Shown here one piece after another: positions 263 to 58,888 of a DNA stretch of 64,000 nucleotides. The stretch comes from Eledone cirrhosa. Lineage: Eukaryota. The stretch spans positions 48,794,001 through 48,858,000 of the forward strand of contig OZ024748.1 in the NCBI GenBank assembly GCA_964016885.1, read 5' to 3'. How positions within the stretch are numbered: position 1 is the stretch's first letter; each line of letters begins with the position of its first letter. The position numbers and the translations under genes were made by a program. Under the pieces are notes generated by a model. That model made no database searches. It saw only the letters and a list, made by a program, of their open reading frames with translations, and was not told where the DNA came from.

Positions 263-406
263 TTATTTTCTTGTAATCATCTAAAGGTTTCTTGGCATTA
301 AATATAGAAGCTATATATATATATATATATATATATATATATATATATATATAGAGAGGTTCTATATTTAATGCCAAGAAATCTTTAGATGAGTACAAGA
401 AAATAA
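263..406. repeat. Inverted repeat (~47 bp arms) around a (TA)n spacer
   Basis: 263-309 ttattttcttgtaatcatctaaaggtttcttggcattaaatatagaa is the near-perfect reverse complement of 360-406. Confidence 0.85.
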
Positions 407-635
407 TACATATATATATATATATATATATATATATATATATATATATATATATACACATACATATATATATATGTGAGGGGGTGGGGAGAGGGGTGAT
501 GCCCTTGTTTCAGATATAATCCTATATTCCTTCACCAATATACGTTGTCATTTTTTCTTCTTTTATCTGTTGATTAAGATTCCTTTCACGAACAGGAATA
601 TGGAAATGGCGTTGAGGAATATATCTGAATAAGTA

Positions 636-1745
636 TGGTGAGATTTAGGGGATATTTCTGAATAAATATGGTGAGCTGAGATTTGAGGGGTTTTTCTGTA
701 TAAATATGGTGAGCTGAGATTTAGGGGATATTTCTGTATAAATATGGTGAGCTGAGATTTGAGGGGTTTTTCTGTATAAATATGGTGAGCTGAGATTTGA
801 GGGGTATTTCTGTATAAATATGGTGAGCTGAGATTTGAGGGGTTTTTCTGTATAAATATGGTGAGCTGAGATTTGAGGAGTATTTCTGTATAAATATGGT
901 GAGCTGAGATTTGAGGAGTATTTCTGTATAAATATGGTGAGCTGAGATTTGAGGAATATTTCTGTATAAATATGGTGAGCTGAGATTTGAGGAGTATTTC
1001 TGTATAAATATGGTGAGCTGAGATTTGAGGGGTATTTCTGTATAAATATGGTGAGCTGAGATTTGAGGAGTATTTCTGTATAAATATGGTGAGCTGAGAT
1101 TTGAGGAGTATTTCTGTATAAATATGGTGAGCTGAGATTTGAGGAGTATTTCTGTATAAATATGGTGAGCTGAGATTTGAGGGGTATTTCTGTATAAATA
1201 TGGTGAGCTGAGATTTGAGGAGTATTTTTGTATAAATATGGTGAGCTGAGATTTGAGGGGTATTTCTGTATAAATATGGTGAGCTGAGATTTGAGGGGTT
1301 TTTCTGTATAAATATGGTGAGCTGAGATTTGAGGAGTATTTCTGTATAAATATGGTGAGCTGAGATTTGAGGGGTTTTTCTGTATAAATATGGTGAGCTG
1401 AGATTTGAGGGGTTTTTCTGTATAAATATGATGAGCTGAGATTTGAGGGGTATTTCTGTATAAATATGGTGAGCTGAGATTTGAGGGGTTTTTCTGTATA
1501 AATATGGTGAGCTGAGATTTGAGGGGTTTTTCTGTATAAATATGGTGAGCTGAGATTTGAGGGGTTTTTCTGTATAAATATGATGAGCTGAGATTTGAGG
1601 GGTATTTCTGTATAAATATGGTGAGCTGTGATTTGAGGGGTATTTCTGTATAAATATGGTGAGCTGAGATATAAGGGACATTGCTCTATCATATATGGTG
1701 AGCTGAGATTTAGGGGAACATCAGTGTATAAAGTTACTATGAGCT
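636..1745. repeat. 38-bp minisatellite, ~28 copies
   Basis: Unit gagctgagatttgaggggtatttctgtataaatatggt recurs every 38 bp (673, 711, 749...); explains the periodic ORFs 563-1681 and 721-1770. Confidence 0.95.
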
Positions 1746-1994
1746 GAAATTTTGATGTTCTCCTCACCACGCGTGCTGATACCTATTTTTTGTTCTGTTC
1801 TAGGGGCTTATATGCCCTTTTATTAGATTATTTTCTGTTGTAAAAAATATGGCAAAAGCTTCTAATTCAATTCCGCTTGGCATCTGCTAGACACGCATGC
1901 TTTATATATATGTTTATTCACACCCACTCACTCGCGCGCGCGCGCGCACACACACACACACACACACACACACACACACACACACACACACACC

Positions 1995-2275
1995 TGGTGA
2001 TGCGTTATGTCCTTGAGCAAGACACTTTATTTCCCATTGCTCCAGTTTACTCAGCTGTAGAAATGAGTTGCAAATTCAGTGGTGCCAAGCTGTATCGGCC
2101 ATTGCCTTTCCCTTGGACAACATCGGTGGCTTGGAGAGGGGAGACTTGTATGCATGGGCAACTGCTTGTCTTCCACAAAACAACCTACCTAGGACTTGTG
2201 CCTTGGAGGGGAACTCTCTAGGTGCAAATCCCATGGTCATTTGTGACCAAAGGGGGTCTTTACCCTTACCCTTTA
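1995..2275 (+). mobile_element. 5'-truncated SINE (CORE-like block, ttaccc tail)
   Basis: tgtccttgagcaagacactttattt...ctcagctgtagaaatgag block shared with SINE family B; related copy with head at 15985-16410. Confidence 0.7.
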
Positions 2276-2627
2276 TTTTTTTACACACATATGGAACATC
2301 TATGTAATGTATAGTAAGATTGAAATGTCTAAGCATGTTTTGCTATCAAGCAAAGTAGCACATCACATAACTTATCACTATAATTCAGGAATACAGCCCC
2401 TTAAAGTGGAAAAAGTGGAGGAATGCTTGCTTGACTTGAATTTCACATCTACCTGTATGCTGGAAATCTGTGTTACCATTATGCTAAAGTGACTTGCCAC
2501 TCACTTCCACCTATTTTAACAATGTTATCAGCCACTATCTAGACATATAGAACATTTATGTAAGGCGTAGTAAGACTGAAGTTTTCAACCATGTTTTGCT
2601 ATCAAGGAAACTACCTCAATTTATAGA

Positions 2628-2791
2628 TTTTCACTATGAAATAGTTGAGAATATATCAGGGATCGAAACCTTTGAAGTGGAAAAAAATGGAAACTCACTT
2701 CTGGGACTTTAACTTCACATTTGCGATACTCAACTTTTTCCCCTTCAAGGGGTTTTATCTCCAATGTATTCACAACTAATTTATTGTGAAA
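2628..2791. repeat. Old diverged inverted repeat, partly duplicated upstream
   Basis: ttttcactatgaaatagttgagaata...gaagtggaaaaaa versus ctttttccccttcaagggg...ttattgtgaaaa; 2320-2455 resembles 2578-2725. Confidence 0.5.
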
Positions 2792-2916
2792 ATGTATTGT
2801 GTTGTGGTACTTTGCATAAAAGGAAACTGTGTGTGTGTGTGTGTGCATTGGTGCATGCGTGTGTGTATACATACACACACAAGCACACATATGTATATTA
2901 TATCTTTATATATATA

Positions 2917-55789: not shown

Positions 55790-56350
55790 TTGTTGTTGTA
55801 GTAGTTGTAGTAGTTGTAGTTGCTGTTGTAGTAGTAGTTGTTACCACAATGTAGTTGTTGTTGTTGTAGTTGCTGTAGTAGTAGTAGTAGTAGTGACCAC
55901 AATGTAGTAGTAGTAGTTGTTGTTGTAGTTGCTGTAGTAGTAGTAGTAGTAGTTGTAGTTGCTGTAGTAGTAGTTGTAGTTGCTGTAGTAGTAGTAGTAG
56001 TAGTTGTAGTTGCTGTAGTAGTAGTAGTAGTAGTTGCTGTAGTAGTAGTAGTAGTAGTAGTAGTAGTTGTTACCACAATGTAGTAGTAGTAGTAGTAGTT
56101 GTTGTAGTTGCTGTAGTAGTAGTAGTTGTTGTTGTAGTTGCTGTAGTAGTAGTAGCTGTTGTTGTAGTTGCTGTAGTAGTAGTTGTAGTTGCTGTAATAA
56201 TAGTAGTAGTAGTAGTAGTAGTTGTTACTACAATACAGTAGTAGTGGTAGTAGTAGTAGTAGTAGCTGTTACTACAATACAGTAGTAGTTGTAGTAGTAG
56301 TAGTTATCACAATACAGTAGTAGTAGTAGTAGTAGTAGTTGTTACTGCAA
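55790..56350. repeat. (GTA/GTT)n compound microsatellite
   Basis: Direct reading. Confidence 0.95.
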
Positions 56351-56754
56351 TGTTAGGGACATCAAATCAACTGCCATGTTATGAGATTTGGAATTGATGC
56401 TGGATAATTTGAAAAGTTGTGCACAGATACATAAGGATGTGTGTGTGTGTGTGTGTGTGTGTGTGTGTGTGTGTGTGCACGCGCACATACATACGTACAT
56501 TCGAGCATGCATTCATATCTATATATCTATACACACACACACACACACACACACACTCTCATATACATTCATACATATACACATATATATATATACACAC
56601 GCACATATATATATACATACGCAATATTTTTAATCAGAAATGCTAATTCTTTAATCTAATTCTAAGAAATCATTGTTAAGACTATTTATCATCTTGTTAA
56701 GACTTGGTGTTGTTAAATGAGAATAAATTGGTTGCTCTACACTGCAACCTGACC

Positions 56755-57540
56755 CATCACCATCACTACTACCACTACTATTAATACCAATACCACTATT
56801 ATCAGCACCACCACTACCACTACCACTACCATTACCACTACCACCACCACCACTACCACTACTATCAGCACCAGCACCACCACCACTACCACTACCATCA
56901 GCACCACCACCACCACTACCAGCACCACCACTACCAGCACCACCACCACTACTACCACCACCACCACCACCACCACCACCACCACCACCACCACCACCAC
57001 CACCATCAGCACCAGCACTACCACCACCACCACCACCACCACTACCACCACCACCACCACTACCACTACCATCAGCACCACCACCACCACCACCACTACC
57101 ATCAGCACCACCATCAGCACCACCACCACCACCACCACCACCACTACCAGCACCACCACCACTACCACCACTACCAGCACCACCACCACCACTACCACCA
57201 GCACTACCAGCACCACCACCACCACCACCAGCACCACCACCACCACCAGCACCACCACCACCACCACCACCACCACCACCACCACCACTACCACCAGCAC
57301 TACCAGCACCACCACTACCAGCACCACCACCACCAGCATCACCACCACCAGCACCACCACCACCACCACCACCACTACCAGCACCACCACCACCACTACT
57401 ACCACCACCACCACCACCACCACCACCACCACCACCACCAGCAGCACCACCACTACCACCAGCACTACCAGCACCACCACCACCACCAGCACCACCACCA
57501 CCATCACCACCACCACCACCACTACCACTACCACCACTAC
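56755..57540. repeat. (ACC)n compound microsatellite
   Basis: Direct reading; explains the poly-Val ORF. Confidence 0.95.
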
Positions 57541-58300
57541 CTCTTCTGTTAATTAGATTGTCAACCTTATATCAATCAAAATAACATTTCTGATGAAATC
57601 ATAAAAATTAATCCAGCCCCCCCCCCCCCCCGTCTACTTTCTCCTCTGTCTCATATCTTTTCCCAACTTCCACCATCTCTCCTCTTCTCAATCCATCCAT
57701 CTATCTAACTGTCTGTCTATCTCTTTCTGCCTTTTTCTCCTCTCAGTTTCTCTCACATCTTTTCTTGTTTTCACACCTTCTGCCATACCCCCCCCCCAAC
57801 CATACATGGTTCTTCAGGCATGATTAGATGAATGCGCGCGCACACACACACACACACACACATGCATATATAACACATGCATACATACAGACATATATAT
57901 ATACCACATATATATATACATGCATACAGACAGACTTATATATAACGCATGATGGCTGCCCCCTCGTTTTCGAGTATGGCCATTGTTCGATATAACATTA
58001 TTAATAATTATCAATCAATGCCATCGTGCAATGCCTGTGCGTGAAGATTTTTTTTAAAGTGAGGAAAGACTGAGCCAATCCCACTCTCTAAGAGACAGTA
58101 GCTATAATCCGAAAAGAAGAAAAGATCAACATCAACGCTAACTACTGAGCCGCAGGTTTTATGTCGGAGTTATTTCCAGTTTCCTCAGTTTCTTTCTCAA
58201 CTCGTCTATGCTTGGTCGTTCACAGCACATTGACATTGCACATCCAACGGAGCACACTTGCTTCATTTCTCTCCAGCCGTCATATATATATATATATATA

Positions 58301-58636
58301 GGCACATGGCTTAGTGGTTAGAGCATTGGGCTTGCAATCGAAAGGTTGTGAGTTCAATTCTCAGACCGAGTGATGTGTTGTTTCCTTGAGTAAGACACTT
58401 TATTTCACATTGCTCCAGTTTACTCAGCTGTAGAAATGAGATGATAGGGACTGGGGTCCATATCATTCCACTGCAAAGTGGTCGTGGAGGTGCCACGGCA
58501 AAAAAGCACCCAGCACTCACTGTAAATGAGGTTGGTGTTAGGAAGGGCATCCAGCTGTAGAAATCAAGCCAGAATCAGTTCCCGTCCCACGCTTGCAAGC
58601 AGGGAAAAAGCGGACGTAAAATGATGATGATGATGA
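58301..58636 (+). mobile_element. SINE B
   Basis: Near-identical to 40096-40430. Confidence 0.9.
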
Positions 58637-58700
58637 TATATATATATGGGCAAAATAATTAATGAAAGAGTTACAAGCCTTTAAAACATATCTTTATAAA

Positions 58701-58740
58701 GCTCTTAGATATGTTTCACCCAATGGGGCTCGTCTGAGGC
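58701..58740 (-). ncRNA. Degenerate hammerhead-like motif with CAGACGA core
   Basis: gcct CAGACGA gccc catt gggt GAAA catatct A agagc, between (TA)n tracts. Confidence 0.45.
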
Positions 58741-58888
58741 AGATACTAGGCAATATATATATACTCGTTCCTATTACCCACTCTACTACCCTAAGTATTG
58801 AGTACTTTGGTGCGTTATGGTCCACCTGGTTCCTTACCACATTTCCTTCGTTATATATATATATATATATATATAGTAATAATAATAA

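What the first reader, a model, noticed from the sequence alone, without database searches (positions are those of the whole stretch)
263..58852. Microsatellite-associated fold-back palindromes centred on hammerhead ribozyme helices (candidate Penelope/retrozyme-type mini-element system)
Seen: at least six palindromes from several unrelated sequence families lie in or beside (TA)n or (CA)n tracts (7247-7557, 12574-12722, 12832-12940, 48876-48985, 53812-53919, 54034-54145). Their centres fall on hammerhead-like parts. 12886 and 54089 lie in a stem II hairpin followed by GAAA-stem III-GUC. 53865 lies on a palindromic stem III (ACAATTGT-A, then aataaa). 12648 lies directly 5' of stem I. Established: Penelope-like elements carry minimal type I hammerheads in their terminal repeats, often with palindromic stem III, and often have inverted terminal repeats. 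Inference: ribozyme hairpins act as fold-back priming points during reverse transcription or integration, producing tiny palindromic insertions in TA tracts.
Basis: partly seen in the sequence, partly recalled or inferred. Interest (0 to 1): 0.72.

Follow-up and report, generated by a model that had tools for sequence, protein, structure and literature searches.

The report
Head-to-head Penelope retrotransposon stumps
The palindromes are real, and five of the six are short ends of Penelope-type jumping genes set head-to-head in TA repeats, a known layout, likely made when both cut DNA strands copy one RNA up to its front end rather than by folding back on a ribozyme hairpin.

Summary
The palindromes are real. 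Five of six are 3'-end stumps of four Hydra-type Penelope-like element (PLE) families (288 to 30,649 exact motif hits each). Parents with reverse transcriptase and GIY-YIG-type endonuclease were found for all four. Head-to-head stumps with a one-sided tail in (TA)n are a published PLE layout.

Ribozyme fold-back is not supported. Of 117 head-to-head insertions sampled, 111 pair one tailed with one tail-less arm and none has two tails; in 49, each arm holds sequence the other lacks. Centres cluster at one site per family, differently placed relative to the hammerhead. In families A and B that site often carries an extra G, the expected mark of a copied RNA cap. Best model (inferred): both target strands prime at two start sites on one RNA, copy to its capped 5' end, and are joined.

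The sixth palindrome is a non-coding 258-bp tRNA-containing tandem unit with the same insertion marks and no recognisable hammerhead. 263-406 is unrelated, unique DNA. This scan reached similar readings earlier on other DNA of this genome.

The parts
7162..7558 (.). Family C insertion: tailed arm 7162-7412 (minus; positions -169 to +81) head-to-head with tail-less arm 7416-7558 (plus; -145 to -3). Each arm carries CTGAGGA/CTGAGAA core, long stem II domain, GAAA and short stem III; (TA)n at 7141-7165.
   Evidence: parent with RT and endonuclease remnants in L375; 1,139 motif hits
12484..12722 (.). Family B insertion: tailed arm 12484-12648 (minus) and tail-less arm 12649-12722 (plus). Centre at -74/-73, the first base of hammerhead stem I and the predicted transcription start; core variant CAGAAGA.
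   Evidence: uninterrupted ~700-aa ORF in L105; 30,649 motif hits
12831..13018 (.). Family A insertion: tail-less arm 12831-12885 (minus) and tailed arm from 12885 (plus). Centre at -54/-56, inside the 3' strand of stem II; contains only the 3' half of the hammerhead; (TA)n on both sides.
   Evidence: parents L061 and L064; 26,165 motif hits
48615..49006 (.). Family E insertion: long tail-less arm 48615-48916 (minus, more than one 258-bp unit, tRNA-like part 48694-48766) and tailed arm 48914-49006 (plus, internal deletion); (TA)n on both sides; no recognisable hammerhead, no ORF found.
   Evidence: 788 motif hits
53735..53924 (.). Family D insertion: tailed arm 53735-53869 (minus) and tail-less arm 53862-53924 (plus), overlapping on the 8-nt palindromic stem III; (AC)n to the left, (TA)n to the right.
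   Evidence: parent L223/L224; 288 motif hits
53955..54146 (.). Second family A insertion: tailed arm 53955-54087 (minus), 4-nt insert, tail-less arm 54092-54146 (plus).
58762..58852 (+). Solo family A stump, essentially the tail alone (-12 to +79), in (TA)n.
263..406 (.). Not part of the PLE set: inverted duplication of unique DNA around a (TA)n tract.
   Evidence: only its own two arms match in the genome

Best explanation
Five of the six palindromes are short 3'-end insertions of four Hydra-type Penelope-like retrotransposon families in TA repeats, and their head-to-head form is likely made by twin priming on one RNA rather than by ribozyme fold-back. Shown: parents with RT and GIY-YIG-type endonuclease; two fixed 3' ends per family, 77-88 nt apart; one end of each kind on almost every palindrome; varied junctions; 5' ends piling up at one site per family; an extra G at that site in A and B. 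Inferred: the enzyme, probably a dimer, cuts (TA)n on both strands and each strand primes at one of the two start sites. These sites lie just before the ORF, hence near the front of the mRNA made from the terminal-repeat promoter. Both cDNAs run to, or stop short of, the capped 5' end, and end-joining repair links them with microhomology or small inserts. The hammerhead is a passenger inside the copied stretch. Family E is likely a non-coding hitchhiker on the same kind of enzyme.
For: Parents. Pairing rule: 111 of 117 pairs mixed, 0 tail/tail, 2 none/none, 4 unclassified; tail-less arm reaches more than 8 nt further 5' in 49, tailed arm in 18. Both arms share subfamily letters in 25 of 27 family A pairs, 11.4 expected by chance. 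Longer arm ends in a 13-20-nt window in 40/49 (A), 17/28 (B), 13/16 (C), 8/13 (D) (windows chosen after seeing the data). Extra base before A-60 in pure-TA-flanked rows: 35 G, 12 C, 5 A of 52, among the first 100 of 397 listed. Before B-74: 15 G, 0 C, 8 A of 23, among 100 of 611. Controls: 2 G among 6 genome-wide hits at -57; 1 G-extended against 34 plain joins at -56. Untemplated G is attributed to cap copying in L1/SVA (PMC3287187, passages). A purified PLE cuts and extends both strands, starts at two sites that define the tail, is modelled as a dimer and does not need ribozyme cleavage (PMC11167929).
Against: No RNA data place the transcription start. Joins at A-60 without an extra base outnumber those with G (about two thirds of the 100 rows are plain TA joins). 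Family C shows no clear extra G at its boundary, and D was not tested. Arm concordance could also come from two RNAs of one source locus or from later arm-to-arm conversion. Overlaps of 4 nt or more are enriched (17 of 117), as fold-back also predicts; BLAST end-extension may inflate this. In 62 of 111 mixed pairs the tailed arm is as long or longer, which fold-back with a precise stop could explain. Samples are the first hits on contig C1 and include a few duplicated loci.
Confidence: 0.7

Rival explanations
1. Fold-back or self-priming: one cDNA (or an antisense template) snaps back on a hammerhead helix or other hairpin and is copied into the second arm.
For: 53865 overlaps on palindromic stem III. 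Overlaps of 4 nt or more in 17 of 117 junctions against 1-3% expected. Some junction inserts look like short snap-back copies.
Against: In 49 of 111 mixed pairs each arm has sequence the other lacks, including tail-only arms. Most junctions have no overlap or carry inserts. The modal centre is not on a native hairpin loop in A, B, C or D. E lacks a recognisable hammerhead.
Confidence: 0.1
2. Twin priming is right, but the two arms come from two RNA molecules, or the common 5' end is a reverse-transcriptase stall at RNA structure rather than the RNA's capped end.
For: In A the pile-up lies within the stem II domain and is spread over about 12 nt. No clear extra G in C. Tandem read-through copies with longer 5' repeats exist.
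Against: Site-specific extra G in A and B. In B the arms end after the last helix has been passed. Two free RNAs would not by themselves forbid tail/tail pairs (0 of 117).
Confidence: 0.15
3. The palindromes are fixed miniature elements (MITE-like or master retro-copies) spread as ready-made units.
For: About 40 best hits to the 12832 element are 97-100% identical over its length, most with the same short centre.
Against: That search selects look-alikes. In place-ordered samples junctions differ at most loci, arms continue into RT-encoding parents, and the tail is one-sided.
Confidence: 0.04

Closest known systems
Hydra clade of C-terminal-endonuclease Penelope-like elements (Craig et al. 2021, PMC8557442), e.g. 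Hydra-1_Obim, Penelope-13_HM
   Same: RT followed by GIY-YIG-type EN, RW(K/R), DKT, CxCx5C linker, no CCHH, CxxC and CxH motifs, (TA)n targets, hammerhead near the 3' end, inverted 5'-truncated copies.
   Different: Longer units (3.26 kb for B, 3.6 kb for A, against generally under 3 kb); tails of 77-88 nt against 30-40; non-canonical cores in A and B; long stem II domains in A, C, D. The hammerheads differ from the one listed for Hydra-1_Obim.
PAc / Poseidon of Anolis carolinensis (Frangieh et al. 2024, PMC11167929)
   Same: Two internal RT start sites defining an optional tail, AT-rich targets, both strands extended, ribozyme dispensable in vitro.
   Different: Different clade. In the parts I read, the paper does not derive the head-to-head palindrome, the one-tail-per-insertion rule or run-off to a capped 5' end.
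Inverted pLTR with junction palindromes in Adineta vaga PLEs (PMC3846280)
   Same: Head-to-head pLTRs, one-sided tail, Inr-like motif in the pLTR.
   Different: Interpreted there as self-priming on an antisense template; the arm asymmetry measured here argues against that for many copies.
Animal non-LTR retrozymes (PMC7229834; preprint 10.64898/2026.07.22.740005)
   Same: Family E: non-coding tandem unit of 258 bp, up to 17 units, PLE-type insertion marks.
   Different: E has a tRNA-like module in a long stem and no recognisable hammerhead. A-D have coding parents and are not tandem non-coding units.
L1 twin priming and cap-derived untemplated G (twin priming recalled; G from PMC3287187 passages)
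   Different: In L1 the second priming site is variable and gives inversion without duplication (recalled); here both sites are fixed and the arms overlap.

Membership tests
Hydra-clade PLE (families A-D) | Single ORF with RT followed by C-terminal GIY-YIG-type endonuclease | tested here: met
   B: uninterrupted 712-residue frame in L105. A: 601-residue frame in L061 with RT and EN, 53% identical to B. C and D: broken remnants contiguous with the 3' UTR. Pfam scan of A frames gave 0 families; ESM Atlas neighbours of B carry HTH_animal, GIY-YIG and RVT_1.
Hydra-clade PLE (families A-D) | RWK and DKT motifs, CxCx5C linker, CxxC and CxH, no CCHH | tested here: met
   Read by eye in A and B: RWR, DKT, CxCx5C (in part of the copies), CxxC, CKH, and one Cys only inside the GIY-YIG core (definitions). 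C and D were checked only for the EN-side motifs.
Hydra-clade PLE (families A-D) | Insertion into (TA)n | tested here: met
   112 of 117 pairs (E included) have TA on at least one side.
Hydra-clade PLE (families A-D) | Canonical hammerhead core near the 3' end | tested here: inconclusive
   CTGANGA in 16 of 19 C and 28 of 31 D copies; 0 of 40 A copies (24 CTGAGAA, 15 with U3-A8) and 0 of 50 B copies (46 CAGAAGA). U3-A8 is a published variant.
Hydra-clade PLE (families A-D) | Generally shorter than 3 kb | tested here: not met
   Repeat-to-repeat distance 3.26 kb in L104 (B) and 3.62 kb in L064 (A). The paper gives this as a tendency, not a rule.
Hydra-clade PLE (families A-D) | Placement in the Hydra clade on an RT tree | not tested
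   No reference proteins were aligned.
EN+ PLE insertion architecture | Inverted 5'-truncated copy and one-sided tail | tested here: met
   111 of 117 pairs; described in PMC8557442 and PMC3846280.
Active type I hammerhead ribozyme | Three helices around the core | tested here: inconclusive
   Minimum-energy fold gives the three-way form for a U3-A8 copy of A, and only part of it for the other four copies folded. Rfam listed no hammerhead in the rows shown for the window or seven loci.
Active type I hammerhead ribozyme | Self-cleavage | not testable with these tools
   Only 2 of 212 arms end within 3 nt of the predicted cut; the anchor patterns bias against such ends.
Non-LTR retrozyme (family E) | Non-coding tandem unit of 150-450 bp | tested here: met
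   17-unit array of 258 bp, mean identity 87%, no match to the A or B proteins.
Non-LTR retrozyme (family E) | Type I hammerhead in each unit | tested here: not met
   Only a CTGAGGG word, with no stem I partner seen; no ribozyme family in Rfam for three E loci.
Non-LTR retrozyme (family E) | Circular RNA intermediate | not testable with these tools
   No RNA was examined for E.
Non-LTR retrozyme (families A-D) | Non-coding tandem units | tested here: not met
   Copies continue into RT-encoding parents.

The most novel reading that the evidence does not exclude
Most insertions of these PLEs are 'strong-stop'-like products: an RT dimer starts at two fixed sites near the front of one capped mRNA, one per target strand, copies to the cap (leaving an extra G), and the two cDNAs are joined head-to-head. 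This would explain the inverted pLTR, the one-sided tail and the mass of tiny copies in one step. A hammerhead-less, tRNA-cored tandem RNA (family E) would hitchhike on the same machinery.
Probability: 0.55. Interest if true: 0.62.

Novelty: new member of a known kind. Interest (0 to 1): 0.4.

Why it matters
How PLEs form their inverted and tailed ends is stated as open in PMC8557442. Tens of thousands of stumps in one genome give a natural read-out of that step. The one-tail-per-insertion rule and the extra G at the modal centre turn the question into specific tests, and an uninterrupted ORF (L105) is at hand for them. Families A and B reached over 26,000 motif hits each with non-canonical hammerhead cores, which bears on whether PLEs need their ribozyme. 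The layout itself is already known.

Tried and rejected
Rfam on the window (150 of 161 rows shown) and on seven loci listed no hammerhead. The microRNA hits are hairpin or microsatellite artefacts below the gathering score.

My type I descriptor found one weak, unrelated hit at 33196; it missed C and D because stem II is long and starts mismatched.

A parent with CTGANGA directly before the 12886 hairpin: 0 hits. Pfam on three A frames: 0 families. PDB sequence search with B: 0.

RNA runs for B: no RNA holder listed; no reads were laid.

C as a non-autonomous fixed-length element was rejected: about 41 of 100 listed copies share upstream sequence (counted by eye) and L375 has RT and EN remnants. 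A search for C's sequence beyond the tail gave 2 uninformative hits.

A Hydra-type EN hit in L149 lies downstream of the D copy and belongs to another insertion. 263-406 as a repeat family was rejected. No PLE partner for E was found among the fetched loci. One row (second start site in L105) failed to find its motif and was ignored.

Literature searches returned no paper whose listing combines PLEs with twin priming; one search returned none describing a tRNA-derived PLE-dependent element. The library lacks most subscription papers, and I saw only part 2 of 59 of the PMC8557442 supplement, so A-E may already be named in repeat libraries.
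Full report
Observation. The window lies on contig C8 of a 3.0-Gb AT-rich animal genome; it looks octopus-like by its repeats, which is recalled and not tested. All six palindromes are present. The masked window has 10 short-range inverted hits against 0 in each of 20 shuffles. I call the families A (12831-13018, 53955-54146, solo 58762-58852), B (12484-12722), C (7162-7558), D (53735-53924) and E (48615-49006). 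Exact motif hits in the genome, counting arms and not insertions: A 26,165, B 30,649, C 1,139, D 288, E 788. The palindrome at 263-406 matches only itself.

Parents. Longer A copies lead into a frame with RT (YRDDG) and a GIY-YIG-type endonuclease (L061, L064). B has an uninterrupted 712-residue frame in L105, 53% identical to A over 583 residues. D continues through about 1.6 kb of non-coding sequence into RT-thumb and EN remnants, shared by L223 and L224 over 2.2 kb. C does the same in L375 (42% identity to B over 270 RT residues). Motifs RWR, DKT, CxCx5C, CxxC, CxH and the lack of CCHH in A and B match the Hydra clade as defined in PMC8557442 (section 11 read). Its supplement lists Hydra-1_Obim with (TA)n preference and a different hammerhead (part 2 of 59 read). 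Pfam gave no family for A frames, and the ESM Atlas neighbours of B carry HTH_animal, GIY-YIG and RVT_1. No tree was built.

Known layout. An inverted 5'-truncated copy, a one-sided tail and (TA)n bias are described for endonuclease-bearing PLEs (PMC8557442 passages; PMC3846280 passages). Hammerheads in PLE terminal repeats, palindromic helix III and the U3-A8 core are in PMC4209133 (passages). Here each family has two 3' ends, 77-88 nt apart in A-D and about 40 nt in E. In A and B the tail is the sequence just ahead of the ORF. Positions below count from the inner end.

Hammerheads. C and D have CTGANGA in 16 of 19 and 28 of 31 copies, a 6-7-bp stem I, a roughly 60-nt stem II domain and a short stem III. 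A has CTGAGAA (24 of 40) or the U3-A8 form (15 of 40). B has CAGAAGA (46 of 50). Only a U3-A8 copy of A folded into the full three-way form at minimum energy; four other copies did so in part. Rfam listed no hammerhead. The hairpin at 12886 and 54089 is produced by the inversion: the parent's stem II partner lies about 40 nt upstream, and the core directly before that hairpin does not occur.

Junction survey. I took place-ordered hits on contig C1 (A and B to about 22-23 Mb; the first 24-30 hits for C, D, E), merged overlaps, and mapped arms. Of 244 insertions, 117 had a head-to-head partner within 45 nt; long insertions with distant partners were not scored, and a few loci are duplicates. 111 pairs have one tailed and one tail-less arm, 2 have no tail, 4 were unclassified, and none has two tails. 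The tail-less arm reaches more than 8 nt further 5' in 49 pairs, the tailed arm in 18, and 44 are within 8 nt. In those 49, each arm holds sequence the other lacks, so neither can be a fold-back copy of the other. Junctions differ at most loci and often carry short inserts. Overlaps of 2 nt or more occur in 36 of 117 (null 13-19%) and of 4 nt or more in 17 of 117 (null 1-3%), so microhomology helps a minority. Both arms share subfamily letters in 25 of 27 A pairs, 11.4 expected. 112 of 117 pairs have (TA)4 on at least one side, against a 4.7% background.

Where centres fall. The longer arm ends at -64 to -52 in 40 of 49 A pairs, -80 to -66 in 17 of 28 B, -169 to -153 in 13 of 16 C (the C reference stops at -169), and -171 to -152 in 8 of 13 D (windows chosen after the fact). 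Relative to the ribozyme these are inside stem II (A), at the first base of stem I (B), and 10-30 nt upstream (C, D). There is thus no common helix. Only 2 of 212 arms end at the predicted cut site, though the anchors bias against such ends.

Extra G. The modal starts of A and B both read TTAGT with A as first base, like an initiator (recalled). Among the first 100 of 397 hits for a non-T base before A-60, 52 have pure TA flanks: 35 G, 12 C, 5 A (G against C, p about 0.001). For B-74, 23 of 100 listed (611 hits): 15 G, 0 C, 8 A. Rows that resemble the parent's T-run carry C or A, not G. Controls: 6 hits genome-wide at -57, 2 with G; 1 G-extended against 34 plain joins at -56. Against this, plain joins at A-60 are more common than G joins, and C shows no clear G. 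Untemplated G at full-length 5' ends is attributed to copying the cap in L1 and SVA (PMC3287187 passages). Penelope of Drosophila virilis has an internal promoter with an initiator, and its pseudo-LTR holds the sequences needed for transcription (PMC2377424 passages). These counts were made by eye from the listings.

Mechanism. Shown in vitro for a Poseidon PLE: both target strands are cut and extended, RT starts at two sites that define the tail, the protein is modelled as a dimer, and ribozyme mutants still insert (PMC11167929, parts 1-2 of 4). Inferred here: each target strand primes at one of the two sites on one RNA. The sites lie near the front of the mRNA made from the terminal-repeat promoter, so both cDNAs soon reach the cap. 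The outer cDNA trails and more often stops early (49 against 18). End-joining links the two 3' ends. Small RCTC...GAGY stems follow the ends by 4-7 nt in A (both sites), B (outer site), C and D (inner sites). I checked this after earlier scan notes pointed to it.

Family E. The unit is 258 bp. One locus holds 17 units (mean identity 87%) ending in (TA)n. A tRNA-like module scores up to 55.6 bits in Rfam and folds inside a long stem. Ten of 11 pairs have one tailed and one tail-less arm. No match to the A or B proteins and no hammerhead with a stem I partner were found. It works like a PLE-mobilised retrozyme (PMC7229834 passages; preprint 10.64898/2026.07.22.740005, parts 1-2 of 5; its supplements were not seen) but fails the hammerhead test. 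The role of the tRNA module (promoter or processing signal) is open.

Earlier scan notes. Several follow-ups on other DNA of this genome reached twin priming, centres at a predicted transcription start, and twin hairpins. tRNA-bearing hammerhead-less units were noted in other genomes. My PLE and twin-priming reading was stated, and the extra-G searches were sent before I saw those notes. The notes are not independent evidence.

Verdict. A real feature and a known PLE layout; the families were not found named in what I read (searches; PMC13282606 passages, name no Hydra family). The pairing rule and the extra G make the open PLE end-formation step testable. Interest 0.4.

Noticed in passing
window 50577-51158 (minus): Family B copy with a large internal deletion that brings the ORF start (51097-50990) close to the ORF end (50964-50881), with a tailed 3' end.
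   Followed up: partly
window 20051-20184 (minus): Second family E piece, solo, tailed, starting near -99, beside (TA)n.
   Followed up: no
window 263-406 and about 32060-32250: Inverted duplications centred on a (TA)n tract. The first is unique in the genome; the second was not searched. Likely a separate repair process at TA cruciforms.
   Followed up: partly
window 61303-61363: Short palindrome with an 11-bp inner stem at the end of a 44-bp minisatellite.
   Followed up: no
window 19621-19940, 40096-40416, 58300-58620, 59653-59972: Four 320-bp copies (94-97% alike) of a SINE-like family with a tRNA-like head.
   Followed up: no
window 4749-5138, 8071-8690, 9787-10304, 11256-11458, 27916-28490, 34556-35185, 47319-47725, 51522-51862, 61714-61928: Abundant roughly 200-bp repeat, often in tandem or inverted clusters.
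   Followed up: no
window 639-1716 and 44223-47028: Minisatellite arrays: 38 bp x 28 and 23 bp x 122.
   Followed up: no
window 2916-3540, 4234-4779, 21506-22231: Fragments of LINE-type reverse transcriptase frames (RTE-like by recall).
   Followed up: no
L370-L371 (G000:C3 about 191.349-191.354 Mb): 17-unit array of family E ending at the inner 3' end in (TA)n, as one long multimer insertion would.
   Followed up: partly
L149, L199, L217, L225, L228: Further Hydra-type endonuclease or RT fragments that differ from the A-D parents, pointing to more families that nest in each other's TA tracts.
   Followed up: no
family E, both 3' ends: Each end is followed by a similar 10-nt motif (CA(A/T)ACTTGCT) resembling the start of the C tail; possible shared start-site signal.
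   Followed up: partly
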